From NCBI GenBank assembly GCA_963765495.1, contig CAVXWP010000009.1, forward strand, positions 480,001-544,000: DNA of 64,000 nt, read 5' to 3'. Made by a program: the position numbers and the translations under genes. Below the pieces are notes generated by a model. It worked only from the letters and a program-made list of their open reading frames with translations. It searched no databases and was not told where the DNA came from. Below, piece by piece: positions 6,549-48,507 of the stretch. This DNA is from Blastocatellia bacterium (GTDB taxonomy: Bacteria; Acidobacteriota; Blastocatellia; UBA7656). Each line of letters opens with the position of its first letter. Within the stretch, counting starts at the first letter, position 1.

Positions 6549-6551
6549 CCT

Positions 6552-13213: not shown

Positions 13214-13252
13214 ATCTTCCTGGAAATCGCTTGCCTCGGCGATGTTTAATTA

Positions 13253-19410: not shown

Positions 19411-19424
19411 TGAGCGCATCACGT

Positions 19425-19919
19425 ATGAACAAGGAACCGATTCCGGCGGCGGCTGTCGCATTTGTCAGAGACACGGAGCGCGGCATAGAAGTCTATCTGA
19501 GTCGCCGCCCGATGCATTTTCGATATTATCCCGGCGCATTCGTCTTTCCCGGCGGACGGCGCGATCTGGAGGACCGCGACCTGAAGGCCACGGCCTGCCG
19601 CGAAGTGAAAGAAGAGATCGGAATGGATATTGATCCCGAAAAGCTCGTGCCTCTAAGAGATATAAACACAAGCGCGCACGCCGGTCCCGTCTATCACATG
19701 CTGACTTTCGCATATCCGGTCGAGATGGAATTTAAAACCTCGATCAACCGCGACGAGATCGAAGAAGAGATATGGGCTACCCCTAAAGAGGCATTGACTC
19801 ACCTTGATCTGCCTTACCAGATTCGGGCCGCCGTCCACACGATTTCGAGCTTTCCGAGCGTAGCCGAGTTGTTAGAGGCTCTATCGTCGGGCAGCATTGA
19901 CGAGGATTACTGGTTTTGA
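19425..19919 (+). CDS. NUDIX hydrolase
   Basis: VFPGGRRD...[11 protein letters not shown] Nudix box. Start ATG 19425. Confidence 0.85.
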
Positions 19920-33210: not shown

Positions 33211-33391
33211 CAGTATGCAGTAGGCAGTATGCAGTAAGCAGTTTGAGGTTTCAAGTTAGGAGTAGCCCGGCAAATTGCGCCAGAGCAAGCCAGCCAAAGC
33301 AGCAGGCCGGATATGGATTTGAACAGGTGGTACCCGCCTCCAATCACTGCCTACTGCCTACTGCTTGCTGCATACTGCCTACTGCTTACTG
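33211..33391. repeat. Hairpin element with (GCAGTA[G/T])n/(CTACTGC)n arms, copy 1
   Basis: cagtatgcagtaggcagtatgcagtaagcag...actgcctactgcctactgcttgctgcatactgcctactgcttactg. Confidence 0.88.
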
Positions 33392-34398
33392 TTTTTTGCG
33401 AGGCGTGCGGCAAGCTTTATAGCTTCGATCATGCTGCCGGGGTCGGCTATGCCGCGACCGGCTATGTCGAAAGCCGTTCCGTGATCCACGCTGGTTCGAA
33501 TGATCGGCAGGCCAAGCGTTACATTGACCGCCTCGCCAAAGGCAAGGCACTTGACTGCAATCAATCCTTGATCGTGATAACAGGCCATAACTGCGTCAAA
33601 CTCGCCGCGCGCTGCGCGCACAAAGAGAGTATCGGCGGGAAACGGCCCGTAAACATCTATCCCCTGCTCCTGTCTGCACCACTCGACGGCTGGAATGATC
33701 TCAAGTATCTCTTCCTGCCCAAACAGCCCGTGTTCGCCCGCGTGCGGATTAAGCCCGGCTACGGCTATACGGGGACGTGCAAGACCAAATCTTCGCAACT
33801 CCCGGTCTGCCAGCACGAGCGCGTCTCTGACGCGTTCTTTGGTTATAGCCTTTATAGCATCCGATAGGCTTGTGTGGATGGTCAAGAGGATGACTCTGAG
33901 GTCGCCCGCGAAAAAACACATAAGCGAATCGCTCACTCCACACAATGAGGCCAGCATTTCAGTGTGACCCGGAAAAACCGAACCGGCAAGCCTGAGCGAT
34001 TCTTTATTTATGGGTGCGGTTGCAAGCGCGTTCAATCGCCCTTCGAGACAAAGCCGCGCGCCCGCCTCTATAAACGAGATAGCGGCCCGGCCCGCGACGG
34101 CAGACAGTTGCCCCCATTGCGCCCCTTCGGCGTGACTTCCCGTATCGAAAACGGCTACGGGGTGATTCTCTTTCAAATCAAGCTCGGTTTCAATAACTAC
34201 GGGGTAGTCACAGGCGAGTCCGAGTCGGGCCGCCTGATTGGCGAGCGCGCCCGCATCAGCGATCAGTATGGGCCGACAGACTGCGCGCACTTCGAGATCA
34301 ACTACGGATTTAAGCGCTATTTCGGGTCCAATACCGGCAGGGTCACCTATGGTGATTCCAACCAACGGCTTGTCGGGACTATTTTGTGCTCGCGTCAC
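33379..34398 (-). CDS. pdxA: 4-hydroxythreonine-4-phosphate dehydrogenase
   Basis: GDPAGIGPE, TAPINK, FPGHTE, GLNPHAGE, YHDQG and RTSVDHGTAFDIAG. Confidence 0.95.
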   Translation of the reverse strand: MTRAQNSPDKPLVGITIGDPAGIGPEIALKSVVDLEVRAVCRPILIADAGALANQAARLGLACDYPVVIETELDLKENHPVAVFDTGSHAEGAQWGQLSAVAGRAAISFIEAGARLCLEGRLNALATAPINKESLRLAGSVFPGHTEMLASLCGVSDSLMCFFAGDLRVILLTIHTSLSDAIKAITKERVRDALVLADRELRRFGLARPRIAVAGLNPHAGEHGLFGQEEILEIIPAVEWCRQEQGIDVYGPFPADTLFVRAARGEFDAVMACYHDQGLIAVKCLAFGEAVNVTLGLPIIRTSVDHGTAFDIAGRGIADPGSMIEAIKLAARLAKNSKQ

Positions 34399-35199: not shown

Positions 35200-35682
35200 C
35201 TACTGAGCCAGCGGCGTGCCGTTTTTGGGTACGCGATCCTGGGCAGTGGCTGTCGGCGGCTGGTCGCCTTCGGTTTCATAAATCACCATTGTTTCATTGG
35301 AATAAAAAGAGCGATTGCCGGTTCCGAAAGCGCCTACGGAGGCGGGCTTGGCAGTCGTATCGAACATGCCCGGCGCTCCTTCACTCGTTATCGGGACAGA
35401 GGCAAAAAGATATCCGCCTTTTGTCCCCGTAGCTATAGTAGTATCAACCAGGCTCTGCGTGCCCAGCGTGGCAAGGTCCGCAAATTTACCGTGGCCCTTG
35501 GTGACCGAATATTGGAGTTGTGATGCGCCAATATTTTTCACTTCTTGAAAGGCAGCCGTCTCTCGCGCGGCCTGCTGAGACTTCAGCAGGTTCGGTATAG
35601 CGATGGCGGCTATGATGCCGATGATCGCCACGACGATAAGCAACTCGATCAGCGAGAAACCTCGCTGCTTTTTCCTATTCAT
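35200..35682 (-). CDS. Type IV pilin (pilin 1)
   Basis: Class III signal RG|FSLIELLIVVAIIGIIAAIAIPNLL and a GAGGAG RBS. Confidence 0.92.
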   Translation of the reverse strand: MNRKKQRGFSLIELLIVVAIIGIIAAIAIPNLLKSQQAARETAAFQEVKNIGASQLQYSVTKGHGKFADLATLGTQSLVDTTIATGTKGGYLFASVPITSEGAPGMFDTTAKPASVGAFGTGNRSFYSNETMVIYETEGDQPPTATAQDRVPKNGTPLAQ

Positions 35683-36057
35683 AATCTCTCCTCAGCCCTT
35701 AAGATGAAGTTTCCCTTTATGGGGAATAACTTTGCGCTCTCTTCGGAAATCGAACGCGACCTCAACAGGACGGTTCATTTATTTTTGAGCTGATGGAAGA
35801 AACTATACCATAGATGGGTAAGTCTCGAAAGTACCGCTTTGGGGAAGGCCCGGCTCGATAATTCGGCGGGCATCTATAATCTCTGGGCGTTGCGCATCAA
35901 AAACAGGACGGTCGAAATGCGTGTCTGCGAAACTGTTTGCGCCTCTATTTTCCGAAAACACGTTATTGCAGATTGAAATTTACCCTACGAACCGGCTCTT
36001 TAGCGTAATCGTACCCACCCGGCGATAGTCTTAGTAAAGAGAATGGCTGAGGGAGGG

Positions 36058-38103
36058 TCAATTTACCTTTTGTTGAACTCGCTTCAGGCAATCCGACATC
36101 GCCTCAACCAGCGAGTCAGACCCGGAAAGCGCGAGGCCGCGTTGAAGCACGGTGGCAGCATCAGCCGACCTCCCCGCCTTTTCGTACACAAGCCCCAGTT
36201 CATAATAGGTTTCGACATCTTTTGGAGCCAGATTGATGACCTGCTCCAATTCTTGCGCAGCTTCGCTATAATGACCCAGCCGAGAGTAGCACAGCCCCAG
36301 ATTAAACCGCGCAGCCGTCGCCTGCGGCTTTAACCGTAGAGCGGTTATGAATAACCCCGATGCGGTCTTGTAATCTTCGGCCTTGAAGTAGATCGTGCCT
36401 AAATTGTTGTAGGATTCGAACATCGTAGGGTCCACCCTGATTGCTCGCCTGAAGTACTCGACAGCTTTGTCAGTATTTCCCAAAGCATCATAGGTTCTGC
36501 CGAGAGAATCGAGGACACAGGGTTCGTCAGGAGCCAGTTCGTCTGATTGGATAAATGCAGCGAGCGCCTCCGTATACCGTTTCACTTTCAGCTGCTCGAG
36601 CCCGATATTATAGTAAGGCGACCAGGAGGTCGGACTGATGCGAGCGGCGTTCGACCAGAGCGAGTACTCATCGGCCCAGCTTCGATTTCCGACCCAGCAT
36701 CCCCCTATGAGGATTATCATTAACAGAGTGAGCATAAGCGGACTGAATCTTATAGCCCGTCGAGTAAATACCGCCTCCCGATTGCGCCCGGCCCAGACTC
36801 CACACATCCAGGCAAATCCCGAGGCGATGAGATAGCCAAACCCCATCACTGACAGATATAAGTATCGGTCAGCAAGCAAGTATTCTTCCGATAATTGAGT
36901 GATATTCAGCACGGGCAATATTGGAATCACTATCATGGCCAGAGCGTGCCAAACTTCCTTTCTCAACTTTTTGCGATAACCGACAATCAACCCGAATAAT
37001 AAAGTCAGGAGCACAGCCGGTATGAGAAATTTGGGAGACGCAGCGCTCGTTATGATACGCGTATGATAGACCACGCTCAGGTTGAACGGCCATATAAGGT
37101 GCTGGATATACGACCATAAAATCAATGGAAGGGTCAGCAAAACGTGCACTAAAGAGCCTTTGTGAGCGTTTGGGTTCTCCCAGGTCAGAGCGCCGAGTAC
37201 CGCGTAACGACAGGCCAGATAAAATAAGGCGACCGCCAGATGTGGCAGGGTCCAGGTTGCCGATTGAATAGCTCGGACGGTTATCGCGCGCCACCAGTTT
37301 TGACTCTTCTCTCCAGACCGCGCGACTGCCTTCCCGTTTGCGCCCGATTCGATATATTCATAAGCGAAGATGAGGATGATCAGGCTCAGAGCCGTCTCCT
37401 TCGAGAAGGCCGAAATGGCAAACATGATGAGCGAGACAGCTAAAGAAATCCTGCTTTTATTACTGCGAAATCTGAGATAAAAATAGTAGGATGCGAGAAA
37501 GAACAGGCTGAAGAGAGGGTCAGTCATCCCGCTTATCCAGCTCACCGATTCTGTATGTATCGGATGAATGGCAAAGATACTTGCCGCTATTGCTGCCATC
37601 CATTTTCGCTGAGATATCATCAGCAACACATAATAAACGCCTATCGCGCAAAGCAGGTGCATCAGCAGGCTTACAAGGTGCCAGCCCTGAGGCCACAACC
37701 CGAACAGTTTGTACTCTACCGTAAGCATCACCGTAAAAATCGGGCGATAGTAGGGCGGGGGGAACGGCACACGCAAGGTCGCAGCATGTTCTCTAAACTC
37801 CCAAACGTGCGTCGTGAATGCATGCCCGAGATTATCCCATGAACGTATAAGCGGATTTGTAACGATCTGCTCCGCGTCATCGAAGACAAAGTCCCCGCCG
37901 AGCATGTTTGCATAGGCAAGTGATGACAATAAGCATAAAAGCAGTATGATTCGGCTTGAACTGAGTTGCTCGATCCAACCAAATATAGTCATAGACTCAG
38001 CGTTTTCGGTTTTCGCTTTGCGCGAAGCGGTATCACGCAGGCTCTTGCTCATCTTGCTCGATTTAATTTTTGCTGCAACCATATGCGCTCCTGAATTTGG
38101 CAA
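36058..38103 (-). CDS. TMTC-like GT-C glycosyltransferase with C-terminal TPRs
   Basis: FVFDD, YYRP, HPIHTESVSWISG, SKETA, ADRYLYL, multiple TM helices and TPR repeats. Start may be 38082. Confidence 0.8.
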   Translation of the reverse strand: MPNSGAHMVAAKIKSSKMSKSLRDTASRKAKTENAESMTIFGWIEQLSSSRIILLLCLLSSLAYANMLGGDFVFDDAEQIVTNPLIRSWDNLGHAFTTHVWEFREHAATLRVPFPPPYYRPIFTVMLTVEYKLFGLWPQGWHLVSLLMHLLCAIGVYYVLLMISQRKWMAAIAASIFAIHPIHTESVSWISGMTDPLFSLFFLASYYFYLRFRSNKSRISLAVSLIMFAISAFSKETALSLIILIFAYEYIESGANGKAVARSGEKSQNWWRAITVRAIQSATWTLPHLAVALFYLACRYAVLGALTWENPNAHKGSLVHVLLTLPLILWSYIQHLIWPFNLSVVYHTRIITSAASPKFLIPAVLLTLLFGLIVGYRKKLRKEVWHALAMIVIPILPVLNITQLSEEYLLADRYLYLSVMGFGYLIASGFAWMCGVWAGRNREAVFTRRAIRFSPLMLTLLMIILIGGCWVGNRSWADEYSLWSNAARISPTSWSPYYNIGLEQLKVKRYTEALAAFIQSDELAPDEPCVLDSLGRTYDALGNTDKAVEYFRRAIRVDPTMFESYNNLGTIYFKAEDYKTASGLFITALRLKPQATAARFNLGLCYSRLGHYSEAAQELEQVINLAPKDVETYYELGLVYEKAGRSADAATVLQRGLALSGSDSLVEAMSDCLKRVQQKVN

Positions 38104-38226
38104 TCACTTATGCTTCCAAAACCATGCTTTGAAGAGTGTTCTCAGTATAGGGGCGACTCTGTTGCTTCGAGGCGTCAACGGAGGTACCTGCAATCGCGGC
38201 CTTCGGTTGCGCCCTTAGTGCCGCAA

Positions 38227-40089
38227 TCACATCGGCGCACGATTAACGGCAGATGCAGACATGGCCTGGATTTCGCCCATCTTTTTTCGTATCTCGTCGC
38301 GAGCGGGCTCGTCCTTTTCATACTTCAGGGCCTCGCCACACTCTTCAAGCGCGGCATCGAGCTTCCCCTGATCGCGCAACACAAGCGCCAACGAGAAGTG
38401 GTAGACCGGGTCGGTAGAGGACTTACTGATAGATATGCGAATATTCTCTTCCGCTTCCTGTAATCGCCCCTGCTCTTTGTAAGTCATTCCCAGATAGAGA
38501 TAGGCCTTTGGTGCGCGATCATCGAGCAGAATGGCCCGCTTCAAATATTTTTCCGCGTCATCAAGCCTGCCTACCGTAAAGGCCGCACAACCATAGTTGT
38601 ATTGTGCCACCCAGAGATCAGAATCAAGCTGGGCCGCTTCATGAAACAACTCTACAGCCTCGTTTGGATAGCCGCGCTCCAGAAGGCTTGCCCCCATATT
38701 ATTTTTTGCCAGCGCATTGTTTGGCGATATCTGTAACCCCCTGTGATAAAGCAAGACCTCGCTAGCCCAGTATGACTGTTGCATCGCCGTAAAAACGCCC
38801 AGAAACAGGATTACTCCCGTGGCCAGACTCACCTCAAGCGCGGGCTGTCCAAACAGCCGTACTCTTCCAAATCTGAATCGGCTTATTGCGAATGCCAGAA
38901 TGAGCGCAAACCCGACCGAAGGCAGATAAAGATATCGATCATGCACGATCTCTGACTTGGGCAACACGGGCAGGTTCATCAGCGGCAGTAAAGGCAGCAG
39001 CATAAAGAGGAGCGCAAATCGCGTCCAACCTGCCTGGCGGGTGATCCATATCAGGGCTGCTCCAAAAAGCAGAATTCCTGTTAGCGGCAAGATGACGCTG
39101 GCAAAGCCTAAGCTGTCCACGTAAGGAGCTTCGTAGAACGGGCCCAGGTTGACGGGCCATACAAGGAGGGTAAAATATGACCACAACACGGATGGCAGGG
39201 TCAGTATCACCGATAAAAGTGAAAGGTCAACTTGATTGTGGCTGAAAGCCTTCAAAACCATTACGCGCGCTGCTAAATAAAACAGTACAACTGCGAGGAA
39301 CGGAGTCGCTGCTTTGAATGCTGCCCGAGCCCTTGTGCGAAACGGGTCAGGCTCGCCATCCGCCGATTTCCGCATTAACCATTCATAGGCAAAGATGAGG
39401 CCGGGCAGGACAATGGCGCTCTCTTTTTCAAACATCGCAAGCAGGTAGCATAAAACGGCTGCGAGAATCCATATCCTGCGCCTGCCGACCGTCTCTCTTG
39501 CTTTGAGGTAGCACAGAAAAGCTCCCAGCAAAAATGCAGCCATCAGTGATTCGGTAGTGCCCGATACCCAGCTCGCGACCTCTATGTGAACAGGATGCAA
39601 ACCAAAGATGATGCCAGCCCATAAGGCAGTGGTTCTATCATTGCTGAGCTTTTTGGCGAGCAGGTAGACAAAAAGAGTAGTGGCCATGTGCAGGCTGAGA
39701 GTAACCAGATGCCACCAGAACGGCTTCAGACCAAACAACAGATAGTTTAATCCGAACCAGAGCATCAATACCGGGCGATAGTAATTTTCTCCTGTCTGTT
39801 GGACTGTAACCCACATATGTTCGGTCAAGTAGCTCAATACCCTCCAGGACCTTAATCTCGGATTCTGGACGATCAACATCTTATCGTCGAAGACGAACGG
39901 AAAACTGAGAGTCCCAACGTAGGCCAGCAGCGTGAGCACCACTGGGACGATAGGCGCTATCCACGTTCCGGCATTTCCTTTCTCTTTTTTGTCCGGTTCC
40001 GCTTTTGTCTCCTCGACATCGAATCGAGATATGCTGTCAAACGGAGAAGGGCTCAATTCAAGTCCTTCAATCACCTGATTTCCTTCCAT
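38227..40089 (-). CDS. TMTC-like GT-C glycosyltransferase with C-terminal TPRs (paralog)
   Basis: FVFDD, YYRP, HPVHIEVASWVSG, EKESA, HDRYLYLP and TPR repeats. Confidence 0.8.
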   Translation of the reverse strand: MEGNQVIEGLELSPSPFDSISRFDVEETKAEPDKKEKGNAGTWIAPIVPVVLTLLAYVGTLSFPFVFDDKMLIVQNPRLRSWRVLSYLTEHMWVTVQQTGENYYRPVLMLWFGLNYLLFGLKPFWWHLVTLSLHMATTLFVYLLAKKLSNDRTTALWAGIIFGLHPVHIEVASWVSGTTESLMAAFLLGAFLCYLKARETVGRRRIWILAAVLCYLLAMFEKESAIVLPGLIFAYEWLMRKSADGEPDPFRTRARAAFKAATPFLAVVLFYLAARVMVLKAFSHNQVDLSLLSVILTLPSVLWSYFTLLVWPVNLGPFYEAPYVDSLGFASVILPLTGILLFGAALIWITRQAGWTRFALLFMLLPLLPLMNLPVLPKSEIVHDRYLYLPSVGFALILAFAISRFRFGRVRLFGQPALEVSLATGVILFLGVFTAMQQSYWASEVLLYHRGLQISPNNALAKNNMGASLLERGYPNEAVELFHEAAQLDSDLWVAQYNYGCAAFTVGRLDDAEKYLKRAILLDDRAPKAYLYLGMTYKEQGRLQEAEENIRISISKSSTDPVYHFSLALVLRDQGKLDAALEECGEALKYEKDEPARDEIRKKMGEIQAMSASAVNRAPM

Positions 40090-40349
40090 AAAAGCTGCTC
40101 CAGATTTGCTTTGTGGATCATGGCGCTCCTGGCGTTGAATAGGGCTATATCAGGATTGCGCGCTTCGATTGCAGGGGCCGAGCAACGGATTGGGGACAAA
40201 GTCGAATGCGTTTCTGGAGGCGACCGGGAGGCTTGATTCAACCGACACAGAGATTACCACAGCAATCTTCTTATGCGAAGAGTTTTTACCTGTTCAGGGT
40301 AGGGATACTCTCGATTTTTCAAAGGTGGTTTCTCAGTCTCGCACCTCGA

Positions 40350-41087
40350 TCAAAGTTTTAACTTCTTAAAGAGGAATTCGGGCACGCTCTTTACAGCCGC
40401 CATGATCGGACGCCAGAACCACGGAACATAAACTTCGGATTTTCCAGCAAGCATCGCTCTGTGTATCGAGACGCCCACACGCTGCGGGGTTGCGAAAAGC
40501 GCGTTCTTTTCTATCGCGGACGTCATCGGAGTGTCTACAAATCCCGGCTTTATCGTAACCACTTTGACGCCGGATGGGTACAGACGATTGCGCAAGCCTT
40601 GCAGGAATATGCTCACCGCGCCTTTTGCGGCCCCGTAAACGTAATTGCTCTGGCGGCCACGGTCGCCCGCCACGGATGTTATGACGGCGATAGTTCCCTG
40701 TTTGCGCCGTTGGAAATAATTGGCCAGCATAGTAAGCAGGGCGATCACGCTCGTGCAGTTTATGGCGAATTCTTTCAGGGTTTCAGCCGGGTCGAGAGCG
40801 CATTCCTGCTGATTTGCGAGTGTGCCGTAGGCGATCAAAACGGCGTCGAGGTCCCCGATAGATTTTACAGCCTTATCAAGCATCTCTCGATGCCTCGCGG
40901 TTTCGGTTAAATCCAGAACGTAACTTTCGGCCCGGCTCGCCCCGCGCACTTCAAGATCATCTCGAACGGAACCGAGCTTTTGCGCGTCGCGCCCCACAAG
41001 AAAAAGTTCGGCTCCGGTCGCGGCAAAACATTTGCCGACCTCGTGCGCCATCGCCGAGGTCGCTCCGACGATCATTATCTTCTTCAT
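40350..41087 (-). CDS. DprE2-like SDR (prenylphospho-2-keto-pentofuranose reductase)
   Basis: IVGATSAMA, SVAGDRGRQSNYVYGAAK and KPGFVDTPMT. ATGA overlap with the DprE1-like gene. Confidence 0.82.
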   Translation of the reverse strand: MKKIMIVGATSAMAHEVGKCFAATGAELFLVGRDAQKLGSVRDDLEVRGASRAESYVLDLTETARHREMLDKAVKSIGDLDAVLIAYGTLANQQECALDPAETLKEFAINCTSVIALLTMLANYFQRRKQGTIAVITSVAGDRGRQSNYVYGAAKGAVSIFLQGLRNRLYPSGVKVVTIKPGFVDTPMTSAIEKNALFATPQRVGVSIHRAMLAGKSEVYVPWFWRPIMAAVKSVPEFLFKKLKL

Positions 41088-42421
41088 CCCCTCATGCCGC
41101 CTGATTGCGCGGTGACGCGCCGCCAAAAACCGGAAGAGAATCTCGGATCGACATACCGGGCGAACTCCTTCCAGTTCGGGAAATAGGATTGAAAACTCTC
41201 GGCGCTCATCCTGGCATCCTTGGCCGGATAAACGGCTCCCCCACTTTCTCGCACGATCCTGTCTAGAGAGTCAAGCAGGTTCAAAGTCCTCTCTTCGCGA
41301 TAGGCAAAATCGAGGCAAAGCGTCGAGCCAGGTTTCGGGAAAGAGATCAGGCCGGGCGAGGCAATGTCTCCAAACCGCTTTAAAACAGCCAGAAATGACC
41401 CTTCGCCTGCGCGCGCGGTCCGGGTCAGTATCTCGCTAACGGCCTCGCGTTCGACCGAGGGAGGTACAACGCATTGATATTGCAGAAAGCCACGTCGTCC
41501 ATACATGCGATTCCAGTCGGTTATCGAATCGAGCGGATAAAAGAACGGGTCGTAATGCACTACCTTATTCGTGCCCCTTTCCATACGGTAATAGGTCTCG
41601 TTGAACATTTTCATAGTGAGGCTGTTCAAACAGACCGAAGGAAAATCAAACGGAACGCGAATATTTCTTTGGGTCTTCTTAATTTGAGCCTTCTTAAACT
41701 GTTCCGGCGCGGCTTCATCATGATTTCCACGTATAAAGATGCCCCGCCCTACGCTTGCGCCTCGCGCCAGACAATCCACCCATGCAACGGTGTATTCATA
41801 ATCTCTGTCGGATTCGGCGGAGAGAGTAAAGAATTCGTCCAGGGATTCAAATCTCCTCCTCTCCATTGAGATGAAGGGTCCGCGTATGGGTTTCAGTTGA
41901 AACTCTGCCCACACTATGAGGCCGGTGAGCCCAAGCCCTCCGATGGTTGCTCGGAACAATTCCGTATTTCGATCCGGCGAGCAGAGCAGGCGCTCGCCCG
42001 TTGATCGCAGCAATTCAAAGGATTTCACGTGGAGACCGAATGTACCGGCCCGGTGGTGATTCTTTCCATGCACGTCGTTGGCTATGGCCCCACCCACGGA
42101 AACATACTTGGTTCCCGGGGTCACCGGCAGAAACCAGCCACCAGGAACTATGGTCTTTAGAATCTCGTCAAGCGTGACTCCGGCTTCCGAGCGAAGAACC
42201 CCGGTTTTCCGGTCAAACGAGATAAACCGTCTCAGCTTGGATGTGTCAATCACGACGCCGCCATCATTCAGACAGGCATCGCCGTAACTGCGACCCTGGC
42301 CATAAGCGAGCACGGGTCTGTCAAAGGCTGCGAAGTCCGGCGAATCGCTTCGCCAGTTGAGCCAGGTGATCTCGTCGGGTTGAGCTTCAGGGTAGCGGCC
42401 CCAGGAATGATATTGCTTCAT
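41084..42421 (-). CDS. DprE1-like FAD oxidoreductase (prenylphosphoryl-ribose 2'-oxidase)
   Basis: SWGR, GQGRSYGD, LPVTPGTKYVSVGGAIANDVHGKNHH, FYPLD, WNRMYGRRGFLQYQ, FLAVLKRFG and YPAKDARM. Confidence 0.88.
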   Translation of the reverse strand: MKQYHSWGRYPEAQPDEITWLNWRSDSPDFAAFDRPVLAYGQGRSYGDACLNDGGVVIDTSKLRRFISFDRKTGVLRSEAGVTLDEILKTIVPGGWFLPVTPGTKYVSVGGAIANDVHGKNHHRAGTFGLHVKSFELLRSTGERLLCSPDRNTELFRATIGGLGLTGLIVWAEFQLKPIRGPFISMERRRFESLDEFFTLSAESDRDYEYTVAWVDCLARGASVGRGIFIRGNHDEAAPEQFKKAQIKKTQRNIRVPFDFPSVCLNSLTMKMFNETYYRMERGTNKVVHYDPFFYPLDSITDWNRMYGRRGFLQYQCVVPPSVEREAVSEILTRTARAGEGSFLAVLKRFGDIASPGLISFPKPGSTLCLDFAYREERTLNLLDSLDRIVRESGGAVYPAKDARMSAESFQSYFPNWKEFARYVDPRFSSGFWRRVTAQSGGMRG

Positions 42422-42431
42422 AACTCAGACC

Positions 42432-44141
42432 TCACTGTGTCACAGGCTTAATTACGGAGGATATATCCGAGGTCGAGCCTTCGCTTGCCTGCGCGGGACC
42501 TGAAAGATATATCCCCATCTGCTCAATATCTTTCGGAAGACGCGGCGAAAACTCTCTCAGGTGCTCGGCCAGATTGCCTGCCTCCGAAGGCGCGACCGCG
42601 TAAAATGCAATCTTGTCATCTTTGCATACCACGTTGTCGGGAATATGCCATTCTCCTACTTTTACCCACTGCGACGGAACGCCCCCAAATATCGCAAACC
42701 ATCGGTCATAGACCACCGCTATCTTTACATTATTTGCGTTTGCAAGACCGGCAATCTGCTGAGGCTCAAATCTGTTTTCGAGTATGGCGTTCGCCACATC
42801 GAGGCTTGAGCCTCCAAGGAGATCGAGGCACTTGATATCGGCGAAATAGTTTATGGCCCCGATGTCTGTACCGGCGACACTTTCATGCCTATAAAACTCG
42901 TTGAGAAACAGGGCCGTCTGATACTGATGTTCGTAAATATTTTTCGAAGCCCGCGCGGTTATCTCCAAAGAATCCAACGCCTGCTGCATGGGCCTTGTGG
43001 CGAGAAACAGGAGGAAAGGAGCGGCGAGGATCGTAAACAGCGCCGCCACAGCCTGCCAAAGATGAAGTTCTCGACCCGGCTTGAGCGTAAAGAGAGCGGG
43101 CAGAAACTCGCTCATAGATGCGCTCACGACGAATATGGCCATAGCGATCAGATACGCCTCGTATCTGAAAAACCAGCCTGTCCTTGCAAACTCCACGTGC
43201 AGCAGGACTCCCGCGAGGAAGAGCAAGTTCATTATGGTCGAGACCTGCCAGACCCGCTTTCTCTTCAACTGAAAATGAAGAAGGATCACGCCGGCTACAA
43301 GCATTACAAGAATCTGCGGGTTGGTTACAAGTATGGCAAATTGCTGATGGCCGAGACCTATGAATGATTCTATGGAGTTAATAGTCGGCTTATTGCCTTT
43401 GAGAAGGACCGGGTTTGGCAACAGGTGGGACCCAAGCAGGACTGAGATAAGCCCGAATATGATCACCGGCAATACGGCCAGCGCGCCCATCAAAAGAGAG
43501 TATCGGATACGCCTTCGCAGCAAGAGCATTATGCACCCGACCAGCAGCAGGAATAATCCTTCATAGCGGGTCATAACCATCAACGGGGCGATGACAAGCA
43601 ACATCTTTTTATCGAACTGGACGTTCTGTTCGCTCTCCGCATCGCTCGCAAGCACCCTCGCGCACAGATATACAAATGCGATAGAAAGAAGAGTGTGCAG
43701 CACGTGTTCTTGCCCCGAAAATATTAGCGAAGGCAGAGGGGTAAGATAGATCAAGGCAAGCAAGGCTATTGCAATAAATCGCGAATACAAGCCCGACTGT
43801 CTTAAGACGCGATAGACCAGCAGCACCAGAGCGGTCGCGGCAATAAGATTCAGGATAAACAGGGCGCTTTCGATGCTCCCGAATATCAGATATACAAAGG
43901 CAAGCAACAGAGGCCAAAGGATCGAAGCCGATGCCGACGAAAATCCGTACGGCGTGATTCCCCATACGCCATGTCGAACAAGGTTCTTCGCTATGGCCAT
44001 GTGTATATAAGGATCATCAAGCGCATAGATAAAGTGCCCGTCATTGTAATTGACTGCGATGGTCACCAATACGGCCATCGTGCCCCAGAGTGCAAGCACC
44101 GCTATAAAGGCGGGCCAGTGCGATTTAAAGAACTTCAACAC
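42432..44141 (-). CDS. GT-C family polytopic glycosyltransferase (arabinofuranosyltransferase-like)
   Basis: ALDDPYIH after the first TM helix, SGQEH, TRYEG, many TM helices, and DIGAINY in the C-terminal domain. Confidence 0.7.
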   Translation of the reverse strand: MLKFFKSHWPAFIAVLALWGTMAVLVTIAVNYNDGHFIYALDDPYIHMAIAKNLVRHGVWGITPYGFSSASASILWPLLLAFVYLIFGSIESALFILNLIAATALVLLVYRVLRQSGLYSRFIAIALLALIYLTPLPSLIFSGQEHVLHTLLSIAFVYLCARVLASDAESEQNVQFDKKMLLVIAPLMVMTRYEGLFLLLVGCIMLLLRRRIRYSLLMGALAVLPVIIFGLISVLLGSHLLPNPVLLKGNKPTINSIESFIGLGHQQFAILVTNPQILVMLVAGVILLHFQLKRKRVWQVSTIMNLLFLAGVLLHVEFARTGWFFRYEAYLIAMAIFVVSASMSEFLPALFTLKPGRELHLWQAVAALFTILAAPFLLFLATRPMQQALDSLEITARASKNIYEHQYQTALFLNEFYRHESVAGTDIGAINYFADIKCLDLLGGSSLDVANAILENRFEPQQIAGLANANNVKIAVVYDRWFAIFGGVPSQWVKVGEWHIPDNVVCKDDKIAFYAVAPSEAGNLAEHLREFSPRLPKDIEQMGIYLSGPAQASEGSTSDISSVIKPVTQ

Positions 44142-44178
44142 AGGTGATGCTCCTTGAGCGGGGCCGGTACTTTGAGGC

Positions 44179-45645
44179 TTAAAGAGCCGCGAGCATTATG
44201 GCAGCCATCGCGATACACACACCATAACTGACTCTATCTTTGACTGTGAATACGATGGGGTCGTCATTCATTTTTCCGCGATGGGCCAGGAACCACATCC
44301 GAGTAATCCAGTAAAGCAGCAGGGGACCTATCAACCACAGGACTGTCGGGTGGCTGTAAAGAGGTAGCACTTCCTTGCTATTGATATAGAGCGCAAGTAC
44401 AAGCGCCGACATATATCCACTTGTGGAACCCACGCTTCTGAGCAGTTCTATATCTTCTACGCCGTAGCTGCGACCGCTGGCGTGCGTCAGATTGCGTTCC
44501 TGCATGATGCGCAGTTCGGAATATCGTTTGACAAAGGCAAGGCAAAGAAAGAAGAACATCGAAAAGGCAAGCAGCCACGGCGAGATGATTATATTTACGG
44601 CCATCGCGCCTGCCAGAACTCGAAATGTATAGAGCCCGGCCAGCACCAGCACATCCCCGATCAAGACCCGCTTGAGATAAAAGGAGTATCCGGTCGTCAA
44701 TGCCAGATACAAAGCAAGCCCCAGAGCGAACATCGCCGGGAGAAAAAGCAGCGCTATCAGGAAACTGCTCGCAAGCAATACGGGGATCACCAGCACGCCA
44801 GTTCTTATCGGCAGATGACCCGAAGCAAAGGGGCGCTGCCGCTTGTGAGGATGCAGCCTGTCGGATTCAAGGTCGAGCAGATCATTCATTATGTAAACGC
44901 TCGAAGCGCACAGGCTGAATGCCGCAAATGAGAGCGCAGCGGGAACGAACAATGTAAAATCGAATATCTTGTGGGCCATCAGCAAAGGGAGGAAGAGTAA
45001 TATGTTCTTTACCCACTGATGCACACGAAGTGCTCTTAAAAAGGCGAGCGGGCGATTCCTCTCGATGGAAAAGACCTGTTGAATGGGCGCAAGGCGCGCC
45101 GCCCTGCCAAGCAATCGCTTCGACGGCTCAACCAGGATAGCGGCGTTTGCCGACTTCCATAGATGAAGATCGACGACGCTGTCGCCCGCGTAATCGAACT
45201 GTTTCGAGCCAAAACGTTCCTCAAGAGCCTTGCACTTATTGCGGCCCGAAAGGTTTACTTCGCCGTCGCTTGCCATGACAGAGGAAAAGATTCCCAGATA
45301 CTCTGCTATCGGTCGCACGGCCTCGGCATCAGAAGCGGTGGCAAGAACTATCTCGCGGCCCTCTTCTTTTTGCCGACACAAGAATTCAAGCACTTCTTCG
45401 TTATATGGCAGGCTGGCGGCGTTGAGTTGAACTCTTTGAGCAACCTGGCGCTTGAAATAAGCCTTGCCCTTGAGCAGCCACAAAGGCAGGGCAAATAATG
45501 AGAGCGGGTTTTTCTTTATGAGTAGAAGGACTGATTCCCACAAGAGGTCTGTGAGAAGAAGCGTGCCGTCGAGGTCCACGCAAAGCGTCGGCACGAAGCT
45601 CCGCTCACCGATGATCTGCGATTTTATGTTCTGGTGTGCGATCAT
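44179..45645 (-). CDS. HAD-phosphatase / UbiA fusion (prenyl-phosphate phosphoribosyltransferase-like)
   Basis: N-terminal VDLDGTL and YAGDS; C-terminal RVHQWVKN, YIMNDLLDLESDRLHPHKRQRPFASG, KRYSEL and DDPIVF. Confidence 0.88.
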   Translation of the reverse strand: MIAHQNIKSQIIGERSFVPTLCVDLDGTLLLTDLLWESVLLLIKKNPLSLFALPLWLLKGKAYFKRQVAQRVQLNAASLPYNEEVLEFLCRQKEEGREIVLATASDAEAVRPIAEYLGIFSSVMASDGEVNLSGRNKCKALEERFGSKQFDYAGDSVVDLHLWKSANAAILVEPSKRLLGRAARLAPIQQVFSIERNRPLAFLRALRVHQWVKNILLFLPLLMAHKIFDFTLFVPAALSFAAFSLCASSVYIMNDLLDLESDRLHPHKRQRPFASGHLPIRTGVLVIPVLLASSFLIALLFLPAMFALGLALYLALTTGYSFYLKRVLIGDVLVLAGLYTFRVLAGAMAVNIIISPWLLAFSMFFFLCLAFVKRYSELRIMQERNLTHASGRSYGVEDIELLRSVGSTSGYMSALVLALYINSKEVLPLYSHPTVLWLIGPLLLYWITRMWFLAHRGKMNDDPIVFTVKDRVSYGVCIAMAAIMLAAL

Positions 45646-45761
45646 TAGCCTCTGGTCCGATGCTGCAATCAGGGAACTTGAGAACTTTCAGGCGATGGTT
45701 AAAGGGCGGAGCAATCGCTCGCTCCGCCCCACGTACTTGCCACTTTCGAACGAGCGACAAT

Positions 45762-46247
45762 TTATTCGATCGGCGTGCCGCTAGTGGGTACGCGGTTGCT
45801 TGCAGAAGCAGTCGGTGCCGTTCCGCCTGACAACTGATAGATCACAAACGTCTCGTTGGAGTAGAACGAACGGTTGCCCGAGCCGAATGTCCCGCTCGAC
45901 TGCGGCTGAGCCGTTGTGTCGAACTGGGCAGCAGTCGTAGAACTGGCTGCCGTGCCGGTGCAGGCGAAGTTGTAACCGCTCTTGCCGTTCGCGCTTGCAA
46001 GCGCCGAGTCAACAAGGTTTGACCCATTCAATGTGCCAAGGCTGTCGGCAAAATCTTTGCCTCTACCTTCGGTTGACTGATAGGTGGCCTGCGCCGTTCC
46101 GATGGTGCGGACAGAACCGATGGCTGACGCCTCATTGGCCGCCTGTCGGGACTTCAAAAGGTTGGGTATCGCGATAGCGGCAATAATCCCGATGATTGCT
46201 ACCACTATCAGTAGCTCGATCAGTGAAAATCCATTCTCTTTCTTCAT
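45762..46247 (-). CDS. Type IV pilin (pilin 2, Ser/Thr-rich, probable major pilin)
   Basis: MKKENG|FSLIELLIVVAIIGIIAAIAIPNLL with an AAGGAG RBS. Close paralog of pilin 1. Confidence 0.92.
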   Translation of the reverse strand: MKKENGFSLIELLIVVAIIGIIAAIAIPNLLKSRQAANEASAIGSVRTIGTAQATYQSTEGRGKDFADSLGTLNGSNLVDSALASANGKSGYNFACTGTAASSTTAAQFDTTAQPQSSGTFGSGNRSFYSNETFVIYQLSGGTAPTASASNRVPTSGTPIE

Positions 46248-46333
46248 ACAATCCATGCTCCTTCTTTTTATATTATTGCCGTAGGTCAGTGTCCCTAGCG
46301 GCCGAACTACGACAGATCGCAGCCACACTAATC

Positions 46334-46348
46334 GCAAAGCCCGTGCCG
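46334..46348 (-). promoter_or_regulatory. Sigma54 (-24/-12) promoter of pilin 2
   Basis: Minus strand CGGCACGGGCTTTGC matches YGGCAC-N5-TTGC. Confidence 0.7.
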
Positions 46349-46496
46349 TTGCCCTGTGCCACAGGAATATTCTTCGAATTGACTGTAAACAAAGGGTTGT
46401 TTTCGCTTCGGAGAATTTCGCAGGTAGATTTAGGAAGGGAGTTTTGACAAAAAGCGGCAAACTGCGTTTGCCACTTTTTGTCAGAAAAAGGATTGA

Positions 46497-46919
46497 TCAA
46501 GGGATGGGAGTGCTTGATCCATCGGCGGGTGCTCCGAGGTTGGTACGGATCACGCCCGTATCATCAACAAAGAAATATGGCGACGAGCCCGGTTCTTCTT
46601 CGGGCGTTGCTGTACAGGTAAAATTCTTATTGCTGTTCAGGAGTTCGAGGGTGAATGTATAACCGCTCTTCGATCCTGCGCTGACGGTCGGGTCCAATGT
46701 CCCTTCCGGGTTGAGACCGGCTAAGGTAGTGTATTCTTTATACTTAATGTTATACATATTCTCTGCGGTAACGACCATTCTCAGAGTTTGAATAGCCGAC
46801 CCCGCTTGAGCCTTTTGTCTGGCCTTTCTCAATCCAGGCACAGCGATGGCTGAAATAACGCCTATTATGGCTACTACTACAAGCAATTCGATAAGTGAGA
46901 ATCCTCTCTCGCTCTTCAT
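46497..46919 (-). CDS. Type IV pilin (pilin 3)
   Basis: ERG|FSLIELLVVVAIIGVISAIAVP, KSGYTF and FFVDDTGVIR. AGGAGG RBS. Confidence 0.9.
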   Translation of the reverse strand: MKSERGFSLIELLVVVAIIGVISAIAVPGLRKARQKAQAGSAIQTLRMVVTAENMYNIKYKEYTTLAGLNPEGTLDPTVSAGSKSGYTFTLELLNSNKNFTCTATPEEEPGSSPYFFVDDTGVIRTNLGAPADGSSTPIP

Positions 46920-46985
46920 ATTCCACCTCCTCTATAAGACCTGATCTGCGGTCTGCGCCAACGAACAAAGATTTGACCCTTTCCA

Positions 46986-47000
46986 GCAATGACTATGCCA
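46986..47000 (-). promoter_or_regulatory. Sigma54 (-24/-12) promoter of pilin 3
   Basis: Minus strand TGGCATAGTCATTGC. Confidence 0.75.
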
Positions 47001-47298: not shown

Positions 47299-48453
47299 TT
47301 GAACAAAGAAATTGTAAAAGCAACTGCCTGGGGAATACTGATTACTCTTATGCTGTCTGCGATGGTCCTGCTCGGTTCGCGCAATCTGTCGCATTTCGAT
47401 GCCGCGCTTGTGGGATATACCTTCGCCGTGCTCTTTGCCGCTTTCGCCATCACCTATCGTTATGCGATGTGGTTGCAGCGTCCGCCCACGACCCTGTACT
47501 GGAGGCGAGGCTGGCAGGTATTCTTTCGTCCGCGCCACCTGAGGGCGAATCTCGGCAACTGGTTCAAGCGCGTCATCTCCGAACTCGCGTTGAATATATT
47601 CATCTTCAAACGCGCGCGTCTTCGCGGAGTAGCCCACTGGCTGATAATGTGGGGATGCCTTCTGGCCGTAGCGATCACTTTTCCGCTCGTCTTCGGCTGG
47701 CTCCACTTCGAGACGCTGCCCGAAGACCTGACCCGGTATCGCGCCTATGTTTTCGGCTTTCCCGCCTTCTCGTTCCCGATTGAATCGCTGCCCGCATTTC
47801 TGATCTTTCACGGACTCGTGTGGGCATCAATACTTGTTGTGGTAGGAGTGATGCTTGCCATGCGAAGACGCATGCGCGATCACGGGGCTGCCGCGCTGCA
47901 ACAGTTCGGGGAAGACTTTCTGCCGCTCATCCTCCTTTTTGCGGTAAGCGTGACCGGGTTGATGCTGACGGCAAGCTACACCTGGATGAAGGGATATGCA
48001 TATGATTTCCTCGCCATCCTGCACGCCTTCACAGTTATCTTCACTCTGCTGTGGCTGCCGTTTGGAAAATTTTTTCATATCTTTCAAAGGCCCGCGCAAC
48101 TCGGCGTGAGCTTTTACAAAGACGCAGGCATTCGTCAGGAGGCGGCCAACTGCCGCCGATGCGGCGAGCCTTTTACATCAAGGCAGCACGTAGAGGATTT
48201 GATAGAAGTTGAGCGCAAGCTCGGCTACAGCTACGAAATGAAGCATCCCGAGGCCGGGCACTATCAATGGATTTGCCCGCGCTGTCGCCGGGCGATGCTG
48301 GTTCTCGCGCAGGGGCGTCTCTCGGAAGACTCGCAGGGCGGCGAGCCCGCTATCACGGGCCTCGCGCCTCTTATGCCTCAATCCACGCTCGGCAATCCTC
48401 AAATAGGCTTCGGCCCTTTGAGCGAAGAGGATCGCAAGAACTTTCATCCGTAG
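47299..48453 (+). CDS. NarI-like (cytochrome b-type) membrane subunit with C-terminal CxxC...CxxC
   Basis: TM helices with His residues ([28 protein letters not shown]), plus CRRC...CPRC. Confidence 0.65.
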
Positions 48454-48507
48454 GCGCGAGCGGAGAAATCTGTAGAACGGGGAAACCTGTAGAAGGAGTC
48501 ATCGCCG

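What the first reader, a model, noticed from the sequence alone, without database searches (positions are those of the whole stretch)
35200..47000. Self-contained type IV pilin arabinofuranosylation island
Seen: co-oriented genes pilin3, pilin2, HAD/UbiA, GT-C, DprE1-like, DprE2-like, TMTC-like, TMTC-like, pilin1. Established: a UbiA-type phosphoribosyltransferase, a phosphatase and DprE1/DprE2 make the prenyl-phospho-D-arabinofuranose donor in mycobacteria. Pseudomonas aeruginosa group IV pilins carry D-Araf added by the GT-C enzyme TfpW, and pilin glycosylation there blocks pilus-specific phages. Inference: donor synthesis, three lipid-donor transferases and the Ser/Thr-rich acceptors sit in one locus, so this is a candidate pilin O-arabinosylation system (possibly phage shielding) in a probable acidobacterium. 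I know of no description of this arrangement. No flippase gene (GtrA/SMR type) is visible in the island.
Basis: partly seen in the sequence, partly recalled or inferred. Interest (0 to 1): 0.85.

Follow-up and report, generated by a model that had tools for sequence, protein, structure and literature searches.

The report
Pilin glycosylation island with arabinofuranose cassette
A soil acidobacterium keeps its three pilus-subunit genes beside membrane sugar-transferases, as its relatives do, but only this genome has gained genes for a mycobacterium-type arabinose donor there, so its pili are probably coated with that sugar.

Summary
Nine co-oriented minus-strand genes (35200-46919) encode three PilA-like pilins, a HAD-UbiA fusion, DprE1- and DprE2-like enzymes, one GT-C enzyme of an unnamed family (GTC569) and two GT-C+TPR enzymes. 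No flippase gene lies in the island; the only GtrA gene is about 98 kb away.

The pilin to GT-C+TPR pairing is conserved: at least 29 of 52 genomes of the same family (probably Blastocatellia) have a pilin-A orthologue within 3.2 kb of such an enzyme. Ten fetched loci read pilins then GT-C+TPR genes, with pilS-pilR identified upstream in one. The donor genes are not conserved: DprE1 was found in 0 of 52 family genomes. Elsewhere the HAD-UbiA/DprE1/DprE2 cassette almost never sits near pilins (2 of 60 and 1 of 80 loci).

So this looks like a conserved pilin-glycosylation locus that captured an arabinofuranose donor cassette plus an extra GT-C enzyme. pilA, tfpW and D-Araf genes in one cluster are already reported for two proteobacteria (bioRxiv 10.1101/2020.04.19.049825). 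I rate it a new variant of a known kind. Direct homology to TfpW, expression and the sugar itself are untested.

The parts
46497..46919 (-). Pilin C (140 aa), PilA-like type IV prepilin
   Evidence: PF07963 at E 4.5e-9. 59% identical to the pilin C of relative locus L096.
46985..47000 (-). Possible sigma-54 -24/-12 element, 66 nt upstream of the pilin C start codon
   Evidence: One mismatch to the recalled consensus. The window holds 3 such matches against 2.0 expected by chance, so only its position is suggestive.
46442..46486 (-). Hairpin followed by a T run after pilin C (terminator-like)
   Evidence: 21-nt arms, 90% complementary (I4); sequence read.
45762..46247 (-). Pilin B (161 aa from the ATG before the prepilin motif)
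   Evidence: PF07963 at E 3.5e-9. 67% identical to L096 pilin B and 58-59% to pilin A.
45700..45740 (-). GC-rich hairpin plus TTT between pilin B and HAD-UbiA
   Evidence: Read directly from the sequence. The consensus scan did not list it.
44179..45645 (-). HAD phosphatase fused to a UbiA-type polyprenyl-phosphate phosphoribosyltransferase (488 aa)
   Evidence: PRK08238 at 649 bits; decaprenyl-phosphate phosphoribosyltransferase models at 119-158 bits, below their cut-offs. Motifs DLDGT and NDLLDLESD present.
42432..44141 (-). GTC569: GT-C fold glycosyltransferase of an unnamed family, with a C-terminal alpha/beta domain
   Evidence: AF2 pLDDT 88.3. VIA Z-scores: AglB 20.6, Pmt4 20.1, ArnT 19.2, AftA 17.8, AftB 16.3. 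D42, D43 and Y45 are invariant in 38 homologues.
41084..42421 (-). DprE1-like FAD oxidase (445 aa)
   Evidence: NF053785 at E 6e-117, 391 bits, below its cut-off of 500. Single copy in the genome.
40350..41087 (-). DprE2-like SDR reductase; its start overlaps the DprE1 stop codon (ATGA)
   Evidence: NF053786 at 165 bits, PRK07102 at 306 bits; overlap seen.
38227..40089 (-). TPR-GTC2 (620 aa): GT-C membrane domain plus C-terminal TPR
   Evidence: AF2 pLDDT 89.9. VIA: AglB Z 20.2 (residues 44-468), ArnT 18.9, Pmt1/2 17.9; TPR over residues 440-620. D68, D69 and Y305-X6-P312 are invariant or near-invariant in 37 homologues.
36058..38103 (-). TPR-GTC1 (up to 681 aa; the true start may be the Met at residue 38)
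   Evidence: TPR families. 29-30% identical to TPR-GTC2 over about 600 aa. 50% identical to the pilin-adjacent enzyme of L096. DD at residues 75-76 and YX6P at 332.
35200..35682 (-). Pilin A (160 aa)
   Evidence: PF07963 at E 6.7e-11. 74% identical to L096 pilin A. Orthologues found in 48 of 52 family genomes.

Best explanation
This is the major-pilin locus of a soil acidobacterium, probably of class Blastocatellia.

Its conserved core is three PilA-like pilins (A, B, C) and two periplasm-facing GT-C+TPR enzymes built like TfpW or the eukaryotic TMTCs. I infer that these enzymes O-glycosylate Ser/Thr of the pilins after export, using a polyprenyl-phosphate sugar.

A four-gene block has been inserted into this core, between pilin B and the GT-C+TPR genes, and only in this lineage. 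In that block:
- HAD-UbiA would make polyprenyl-P-ribose from PRPP and remove the 5-phosphate.
- DprE1 and DprE2 would epimerise C2 to give polyprenyl-P-D-arabinofuranose.
- GTC569 sits inside the cassette, 37 nt and 10 nt from its neighbours. I infer that it is the arabinofuranosyltransferase, adding Araf to the pilin or to a glycan that the GT-C+TPR enzymes start. Alternatively, the GT-C+TPR enzymes use the new donor themselves.

Flipping of the donor would need a gene outside the island.

Shown: gene content, folds, motifs, synteny and distribution. Inferred: the acceptor, the sugar, the division of labour among the three GT-C enzymes, and any role against phages.
For: Donor enzymes. DprE1 and DprE2 overlap by 4 nt, and the gaps inside the cassette are 37 and 10 nt.

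GT-C folds. Both modelled enzymes have a GT-C fold with an invariant DD in the first external loop. TPR-GTC2 also has a C-terminal TPR domain. This matches the TfpW features as published.

Conserved pilin pairing:
- The best class-wide matches to TPR-GTC2 (44-49% identity, E 1e-98 to 1e-106) are tandem copies in family genomes.
- Of 20 such loci fetched, 10 carry pilin A/B/C orthologues directly beside 1-3 GT-C+TPR genes. In 8 of the 10 an ABC-2 membrane gene of 280-286 aa lies among them. pilS-pilR lie upstream in L084, and a pilR-like gene in L083.
- Crossing the coordinates places a pilin A orthologue 236-3161 nt from a GT-C+TPR match in 29 of 52 family genomes. This is a lower bound, because one search listed only 150 of 314 matches.

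Persistence after rearrangement. In G000 the ancestral locus is scattered: pilS-pilR on C1, the ABC-2 and 300-aa TPR genes on C7, and DUF3108-PEMT-GT9 at C9:810-813 kb. The pilins and GT-C+TPR genes nevertheless stayed together.

Lateral origin of the cassette. DprE1 was found in 0 of 52 family genomes. The closest DprE1 proteins are 55-58% identical in another class of the phylum and 65% in a metagenome contig. HAD-UbiA hits lie directly upstream of DprE1 in 57 of 80 metagenome loci, most followed by DprE2, so the cassette is a common module.

Precedent. Pseudomonas group IV pilins carry D-Araf added by TfpW, using the products of PsPA7_6245-6251.
Against: - There are no expression data and no glycan data.
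- No flippase gene lies in the island; the single GtrA gene is about 98 kb away.
- A hairpin followed by T residues separates pilin B from HAD-UbiA, so co-transcription with the pilins is not assured.
- The Araf-pilin link is seen in this one genome only: a pilin motif near DprE1 in 2 of 60 and 1 of 80 other loci, a GT-C+TPR gene in 0 of 60 and 1 of 80, and GTC569 in 0 of 60 and 0 of 80.
- The GTC569 family is not usually tied to pentofuranose donors or pilins. Among 80 loci from many phyla, UbiA lay within 10 kb in 3, DprE1 in 1 and a pilin motif in 1. Among 21 phylum genomes carrying the family, none had it beside DprE1.
- Family relatives glycosylate, if they do, without DprE1, so the GT-C+TPR enzymes ancestrally use another donor.
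- Sequence homology to TfpW could not be tested.
- The DprE1 and DprE2 scores are below NCBIfam's equivalog cut-offs.
Confidence: 0.5

Rival explanations
1. The cassette (HAD-UbiA, GTC569, DprE1, DprE2) is a self-sufficient pentofuranose side-chain system in the sense of Kelly et al. 2024. It would decorate a non-pilin glycan such as LPS, a capsule or an exopolysaccharide, and it merely landed in the pilin locus. The GT-C+TPR enzymes would keep glycosylating the pilins with their ancestral sugar.
For: - In other genomes the cassette sits among polysaccharide-type genes (GT2, GT4, WbsX/RgpF, epimerases, ABC-2 transporters, GtrA) and not near pilins.
- GTC569 relatives occur in varied, non-pilin contexts.
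- A hairpin followed by T residues lies between pilin B and the cassette.
- Kelly et al. describe donor synthase + flippase + GT-C as a widespread module for polysaccharides (Discussion read).
Against: - The insertion lies exactly between partners that are contiguous in at least 10 relatives, co-oriented and with short gaps.
- No polysaccharide genes flank the island.
- Pilins and GT-C+TPR genes stayed with the cassette while the rest of the ancestral locus scattered.
Confidence: 0.25
2. The GT-C+TPR proteins are not pilin glycosyltransferases. They would glycosylate other envelope proteins or lipids, or act through their TPR domains in pilus assembly, and their linkage to pilins would reflect co-regulation only.
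For: - The genome has three further paralogues away from pilins, and the family is very large in Acidobacteriota (581 hits).
- Some close homologues have no pilin motif within +-10 kb: 8 of the 10 fetched loci without one, including L095 and L101. The other 2, L086 and L087, are short contigs made up only of GT-C+TPR genes.
- TPR proteins such as PilF/PilW and Tgl act in pilus biogenesis (recalled; NCBIfam TPR hits).
Against: - The DD motif and other GT-C catalytic-loop residues are invariant in 37 homologues.
- Adjacency to pilin A is seen across 11 genera of the family.
- The only characterised enzyme of this architecture encoded next to a pilin gene, TfpW, glycosylates that pilin.
Confidence: 0.1
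3. The lipid-linked sugar made here is not D-arabinofuranose. It would be ribofuranose or another epimer, and the DprE1/DprE2-like pair would have a different specificity.
For: - Both enzymes score below the NCBIfam equivalog cut-offs, 391 against 500 bits and 165 against 250.
- Kelly et al. show that the same donor route also yields Ribf and Xylf with other epimerases.
Against: - The match to DprE1 covers profile positions 37-440 of 449 at E 6e-117.
- The paired, overlapping DprE1-DprE2 arrangement is that of the known Araf systems.
- Kelly et al. report DprE1/E2 homologues specifically in Araf-containing glycan producers.
Confidence: 0.1

Closest known systems
Pseudomonas (para)aeruginosa group IV pilin arabinosylation: PilA-TfpW(-TfpX) plus PsPA7_6245-6251
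   Same: - Pilin genes sit next to a GT-C enzyme with a C-terminal TPR domain and a DDX motif in the first periplasmic loop.
- The donor is made by a UbiA-type synthase, a phosphatase, DprE1 and DprE2.
- The donor genes there lie on a genomic island, RGP80.
   Different: - There is one pilin and one GT-C enzyme there; here three pilins and three GT-C enzymes, one from an unrelated unnamed family.
- The phosphatase there is a separate, different protein; here it is a HAD domain fused to UbiA.
- A GtrA-like gene (6247) belongs to that cluster; none lies in this island.
- In PA7 the donor genes are unlinked to pilA; here they lie inside the pilin locus.
- Sequence homology to TfpW was not tested.
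Pseudomonas indica and Kingella denitrificans loci with pilA, tfpW and D-Araf genes clustered (Villela et al. 2020 preprint, Fig. 1 text)
   Same: Acceptor, transferase and donor-synthesis genes lie in one locus.
   Different: - Those are Proteobacteria; this is Acidobacteriota.
- I could not see those loci (figures are not held), so gene-by-gene comparison is open.
- The extra GT-C enzyme and the pilin triplet are not mentioned there.
Three-component pentofuranose systems (PPPRS-PRP fusion, MATE flippase, GT136 GT-C; Kelly et al. PNAS 2024)
   Same: - A fused UbiA-type synthase and HAD-type phosphatase.
- An optional DprE1/E2 pair for Araf.
- A dedicated GT-C enzyme with a C-terminal extracytoplasmic domain.
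   Different: - The acceptors there are polysaccharides.
- The flippase is encoded in those clusters.
- The P. syringae example has the phosphatase domain at the C terminus; here HAD is N-terminal.
- Membership of GTC569 in GT136 was not tested.
Mycobacterial DPA pathway with Aft/Emb arabinosyltransferases
   Same: The UbiA (Rv3806c-type), DprE1 and DprE2 chemistry, and GT-C enzymes that use a polyprenyl-P-Araf donor.
   Different: - GTC569 resembles AftA/AftB/Emb (Z 14-18) no more than it resembles OST, PMT or ArnT (Z 18-21).
- The acceptor there is cell-wall arabinan.
Eukaryotic TMTC1-4 / TMEM260 / PMT protein O-mannosyltransferases
   Same: GT-C membrane domain; in TMTC and TMEM260 also a TPR domain; protein Ser/Thr acceptors (search listing and abstracts). 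Pmt1/2 and Pmt4 are among the fold matches.
   Different: Those use a Dol-P-Man donor and ER substrates. No orthology is claimed.

Membership tests
TfpW-type pilin glycosyltransferase | Polytopic GT-C membrane domain | tested here: met
   TPR-GTC2 model: AglB Z 20.2 (329 aligned residues), ArnT Z 18.9 (339), Pmt1/2 Z 17.9 (354). The preprint's best template for TfpW was ArnT.
TfpW-type pilin glycosylatransferase | Large C-terminal periplasmic TPR domain | tested here: met
   TPR Pfam families over residues 443-604 and 461-676. The PDB profile search and Foldseek are led by TPR and OGT chains.
TfpW-type pilin glycosyltransferase | DDX motif in periplasmic loop 1 and a Y-X6-P proline motif in a late loop | tested here: met
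   D68 and D69 invariant; Y305 near-invariant and P312 invariant in 37 homologues. TPR-GTC1 has DD at 75-76 and YX6PF at 332. The spacing to the second proline differs from the published YX6PFX7P.
TfpW-type pilin glycosyltransferase | Encoded adjacent to the major pilin gene | tested here: met
   375 nt from pilin A in the window. Adjacency seen in at least 29 of 52 family genomes.
TfpW-type pilin glycosylatransferase | Sequence homology to TfpW itself | not testable with these tools
   No TfpW sequence could be fetched. NCBIfam holds no hit named TfpW. The plasmid search gave one unrelated hit.
Polyprenyl-P-D-Araf (DPA-type) donor pathway | UbiA-type phosphoribosyltransferase, 5-phosphatase, DprE1 oxidase and DprE2 reductase all present | tested here: met
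   The DprE1 and DprE2 scores are below the actinobacterial equivalog cut-offs.
Polyprenyl-P-D-Araf (DPA-type) donor pathway | Flippase (GtrA, SMR or MATE) encoded with the pathway | tested here: not met
   No such ORF in the island. The single GtrA gene is about 98 kb away. SMR and MATE genes were not searched genome-wide.
Three-component pentofuranose system / GT136 | GT-C enzyme homologous to Citrobacter ORF12 (GT136) | not tested
   No ORF12 sequence was available. GTC569 has no Pfam family. Its nearest Atlas clusters are unnamed or tagged PMT_2 in 36-38% of members.
GT-C fold glycosyltransferase (GTC569) | GT-C fold with an acidic motif after TM1 | tested here: met
   Foldseek ArnT E 1.4e-5; VIA Z 16-21 to AglB, Pmt4, STT3, ArnT, AftA and AftB. 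D42 and D43 invariant.
Aft/Emb arabinofuranosyltransferases | Closer to Aft/Emb than to other GT-C families | tested here: inconclusive
   AftA Z 17.8, AftB 16.3 and Emb 11.7-16.0, against AglB 20.6, Pmt4 20.1 and ArnT 19.2. There was no sequence hit in the PDB.
Type IVa major pilin (PilA) | Prepilin leader with G|F, a conserved hydrophobic N-terminal helix, and a PilS-PilR-linked locus | tested here: met
   N_methyl domain. In relative L084 the orthologous pilins follow pilS-pilR. In G000 pilS-pilR lie on C1, next to PilB/PilT-type ATPases.

The most novel reading that the evidence does not exclude
A whole acidobacterial family, probably in Blastocatellia, glycosylates its pili with arrays of one to four TMTC/TfpW-like GT-C+TPR enzymes encoded beside a conserved pilin triplet, and the sugar is set by exchangeable lipid-donor modules. 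This genome would show such an exchange caught in place: a mobile HAD-UbiA/DprE1/DprE2 cassette carrying a GT-C enzyme of an unnamed family. That family spans many bacterial phyla, and archaeal MAGs titled Thorarchaeota, Hermodarchaeota, Promethearchaeota and Methanoperedens. The case would give the family its first assignable activity: an arabinofuranosyltransferase acting on a pilin glycan.
Probability: 0.3. Interest if true: 0.7.

Novelty: new variant of a known kind. Interest (0 to 1): 0.5.

Why it matters
Pilin arabinofuranosylation is known experimentally only from Pseudomonas, where it blocks pilus-specific phages (abstracts and passages).

If the reading holds, it would matter in four ways:
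- It extends the modification to a dominant soil phylum.
- It suggests that the donor pathway moves as a three-gene cassette that can be plugged into an existing pilin-glycosylation locus.
- It offers a compact gene set (three pilins, three GT-C enzymes, three donor enzymes) for asking how GT-C+TPR enzymes choose protein acceptors and how priming and elongation are divided.
- It gives a first functional handle on GTC569, a large unnamed GT-C family.

If the rival reading is right, the island is only a chance juxtaposition, and what remains is the conserved pilin/GT-C+TPR pairing.

Tried and rejected
- **Fetching a TfpW sequence for direct comparison.** No tool returns a protein by accession. 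tblastn of the TPR-GTC2 membrane domain against plasmids gave one unrelated archaeal hit.
- **Reaching Gammaproteobacteria through a locus titled Nevskia soli**. The 'class' of that genome returned matches at the same contigs, coordinates and E-values as acidobacterial genomes (for example C9:49825-51120 at 1.6e-156).
- **RNA evidence.** No RNA holder is listed for the island. Only low-depth DNA contigs of one soil run could be laid on it.
- **Sigma-54 promoters.** One good match lies upstream of pilin C, but the count in the window is not above chance: 3 against 2.0 expected, and 31 of 100 shuffles reach 3.
- **Insertion scars.** No direct or inverted repeats flank the cassette beyond the pilin N-terminal repeat. 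Cassette GC is 52.7%, against 53.9% for the window.
- **Relatedness of the two GT-C families.** Profile-profile comparison gave probability 8%.
- **Sequence search of GTC569 against PDB chains.** No hit at E<=10.
- **Foldseek on the whole TPR-GTC2 model.** It listed only TPR proteins; the GT-C match needed the wide VIA search.
- **Literature.** Searches for pilin glycosylation in Acidobacteria and for pilin + GT-C + tetratricopeptide found no paper describing this arrangement in the phylum. Supplements and figures were not seen.
- **Complex prediction** was not run, because an enzyme-substrate pair is a poor case for it.
- **Limits of the pilin screen.** The pilin counts rest on my own regular expression for the prepilin motif, so divergent pilins can be missed.

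Full report
**What is there.** The window is G000:C9:480001-544000 of a 7.3-Mb, 17-contig genome. Between pdxA (33379-34398) and a TcuB/QmoC-like membrane gene followed by a molybdopterin oxidoreductase (47299-50715) lie nine co-oriented minus-strand genes. In transcription order they are:
- pilin C (46497-46919)
- pilin B (45762-46247)
- HAD-UbiA (44179-45645)
- GTC569 (42432-44141)
- DprE1-like (41084-42421)
- DprE2-like (40350-41087)
- TPR-GTC2 (38227-40089)
- TPR-GTC1 (36058-38103)
- pilin A (35200-35682)

Gaps run from -4 to 375 nt. The DprE2 ATG overlaps the DprE1 stop codon. No pilus-machinery genes are adjacent. PilB/PilT-type ATPases and pilS-pilR lie on contig C1.

**The parts.**
- *Pilins.* All three carry the prepilin N-methylation domain. 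Pilins A and B are 58-59% identical to each other. Mature forms are 18-25% Ser+Thr.
- *HAD-UbiA.* It matches PRK08238 at 649 bits, and decaprenyl-phosphate phosphoribosyltransferase models at up to 158 bits. It has the DLDGT and NDLLDLESD motifs.
- *DprE1 and DprE2.* The DprE1-like protein matches NF053785 over profile positions 37-440 of 449 (E 6e-117, below the equivalog cut-off). The DprE2-like protein matches NF053786 at 165 bits.
- *GTC569.* It has no Pfam family. With 38 homologues it folds at pLDDT 88.3. It matches GT-C enzymes broadly: AglB Z 20.6, Pmt4 20.1, ArnT 19.2, AftA 17.8, AftB 16.3, Emb 11.7-16.0. It is therefore a generic GT-C(A) enzyme, not specifically Aft/Emb-like. D42, D43 and Y45 are invariant.
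- *TPR-GTC2.* It folds at pLDDT 89.9. Residues 35-470 match AglB, ArnT, ALG12, Pmt1/2, Pmt4, STT3 and PglB at Z 16-20, and residues 440-620 are TPR. D68 and D69 are invariant and a Y-X6-P motif is conserved in 37 homologues.
- The two GT-C families are not detectably related (hhalign probability 8%).

**The pairing of pilins with GT-C+TPR enzymes is conserved.**
- A search of 300 genomes of the class with the TPR-GTC2 membrane domain found the best matches (44-49% identity) as tandem copies in genomes of the same family.
- I fetched 20 of those places. Ten (L083, L084, L085, L088, L091, L093, L094, L096, L097, L102) carry orthologues of pilins C, B and/or A directly beside one to three GT-C+TPR genes. 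In 8 of the 10 an ABC-2 membrane gene of 280-286 aa lies among them, and in 7 a roughly 300-aa TPR gene follows. Pfam confirmed both gene types in L083, L096 and L102. Upstream, L084 has pilS-pilR and L083 has a sigma-54 activator.
- Of the other ten, two are short contigs made only of three or four tandem GT-C+TPR genes. Eight have a single homologue and no pilin motif within the stretch held.
- Pilins A, B and C of the window are 74, 67 and 59% identical to their counterparts in L096.
- A family-wide search with pilin A found orthologues in 48 of 52 other genomes. Crossing those coordinates with the listed rows places pilin A 236-3161 nt from a GT-C+TPR match in 29 of the 52 genomes, across 11 genera. 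This is a lower bound, since one search listed 150 of 314 matches and many assemblies are fragmented.
- One family member, G419, has a contig of exactly the length recorded for a protein that NCBI labels Blastocatellia bacterium. The family is therefore probably in Blastocatellia.

**The arabinofuranose cassette is not conserved.**
- DprE1 was found in 0 of 52 other family genomes. Only UbiA-domain matches to HAD-UbiA were found, in 4 of 52.
- Across the phylum, 76 of 400 other genomes have a DprE1 match at E<=1e-40 (this tally includes the unpublished G049).
- In 60 such loci fetched with +-10 kb, DprE2 is adjacent in nearly all. A prepilin motif occurs in 2 (L034, L056), and no GT-C+TPR or GTC569 homologue in any.
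- In the 80 best metagenome loci (50-65% identity), a HAD-UbiA homologue lies directly upstream of DprE1 in 57 and DprE2 is present in 70. A pilin motif occurs in 1 (5 kb away on the opposite strand), a GT-C+TPR gene in 1 (L178, directly after DprE2) and GTC569 in 0. Neighbours of those cassettes are polysaccharide-type genes, with GtrA in one locus.
- The closest DprE1 proteins in reference genomes (55-58%) belong to another class of the phylum.

The cassette is thus a common mobile module, and here it has been inserted between partners that are contiguous in relatives.

**GTC569 is the odd one out.** Its family is large and unnamed (798 hits at E<=0.001, all labelled hypothetical).
- It occurs in 21 of 400 other phylum genomes and never beside DprE1.
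- It also occurs in many phyla, including records titled Zixibacteria, Planctomycetota, Ignavibacteria, Chloroflexota, Thorarchaeota and Methanoperedens.
- Among those 80 loci, UbiA lies within 10 kb in 3, DprE1 in 1 and a pilin motif in 1.
- Of 18 phylum loci, one (L066) has a pilin, a YfhO-like GT-C enzyme, the GTC569 homologue and a UbiA gene together.
- In the window GTC569 splits the otherwise contiguous HAD-UbiA/DprE1 pair, with gaps of 37 and 10 nt. That is the main reason to think it uses the cassette's product.

**History of the locus.** In G000 the ancestral neighbourhood is scattered: pilS-pilR at C1:1148205-1151402, the ABC-2 and 300-aa TPR genes at C7:122288-123979, and DUF3108-PEMT-GT9 at C9:810733-813320. 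The pilins and GT-C+TPR genes remained together, now with the cassette. No repeats or GC shift mark the insertion.

**Comparison with what is known.**
- TfpW of Pseudomonas group IV strains is a GT-C enzyme with a C-terminal TPR domain, encoded after pilA. It adds alpha-1,5-D-Araf oligomers to pilin Ser/Thr. The donor comes from PsPA7_6245-6251, which includes a GtrA-like protein (Introduction and Results read). Those genes lie on genomic island RGP80 (passages).
[quoted passage not shown] A single-locus arrangement is therefore already on record for Proteobacteria.
- Kelly et al. 2024 describe fused synthase-phosphatase enzymes, DprE1/E2 for Araf, a flippase and a dedicated GT-C enzyme as a general module for polysaccharide side chains (abstract, section 9 and Discussion part 1 read).
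- Literature searches found nothing on pilin glycosylation of this kind in Acidobacteria.
- Earlier notes of this scan report pilin genes embedded among GT-C genes in another acidobacterial class, and DprE cassettes in non-pilin glycan loci. I did not check those notes.

**Verdict.** The best reading (confidence 0.5) is a conserved pilin O-glycosylation locus that captured a polyprenyl-P-Araf cassette together with an extra GT-C enzyme. The main rival (0.25) is that the cassette serves another glycan. Still untested are homology to TfpW, expression, the flippase, the sugar and the acceptor.

Noticed in passing
L087 (G567:C152:1-8346) and L086 (G513:C109:1-6117): Short contigs consisting only of four and three tandem GT-C+TPR genes (38-41% identical to TPR-GTC2). 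The arrays can therefore be larger than the pair in the window.
   Followed up: partly
L066 (G133:C5), about 6600-15500: Another acidobacterial genome has a 185-aa prepilin, a YfhO-like GT-C enzyme, a GTC569 homologue (37%), DUF362, a UbiA-only gene, an aminotransferase and a GT2 together, without DprE1/2. This may be a ribofuranose-type counterpart.
   Followed up: partly
L178 (metagenome contig), 2031-7517: HAD-UbiA, DprE1 and DprE2 are followed directly by a 664-aa PMT_2+TPR GT-C enzyme. It is the only one of 80 cassette loci with such a neighbour; no pilin motif was seen on the 9.5-kb contig.
   Followed up: no
G000:C1:1148205-1151402; C7:122288-123979; C9:810733-813320: Genes that flank the pilin locus in relatives (pilS-pilR; ABC-2 and a 300-aa TPR protein; DUF3108-PEMT-GT9) are scattered over three places in this genome.
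   Followed up: partly
L183-L262: The unnamed GTC569 family occurs in records titled Thorarchaeota, Hermodarchaeota, Promethearchaeota and Methanoperedens as well as in many bacterial phyla, at 30-45% identity.
   Followed up: no
L247 / G664: A record titled Nevskia soli (a gammaproteobacterial name) is placed by the genome collection in a class whose sampled members match, in contig, coordinates and E-values, acidobacterial genomes. The bin is probably mislabelled.
   Followed up: partly
window 45700-45740 and 46442-46486: Hairpins followed by T runs lie after pilins B and C. A 2025 J Bacteriol paper (passage) notes a feature downstream of major pilin genes in several organisms with accessory genes, and calls it a likely conserved means of setting accessory-gene expression.
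   Followed up: no
window 18271-21235: A MoxR-type AAA ATPase and a DUF58/VWA protein lie close together. They appear unrelated to the island.
   Followed up: no
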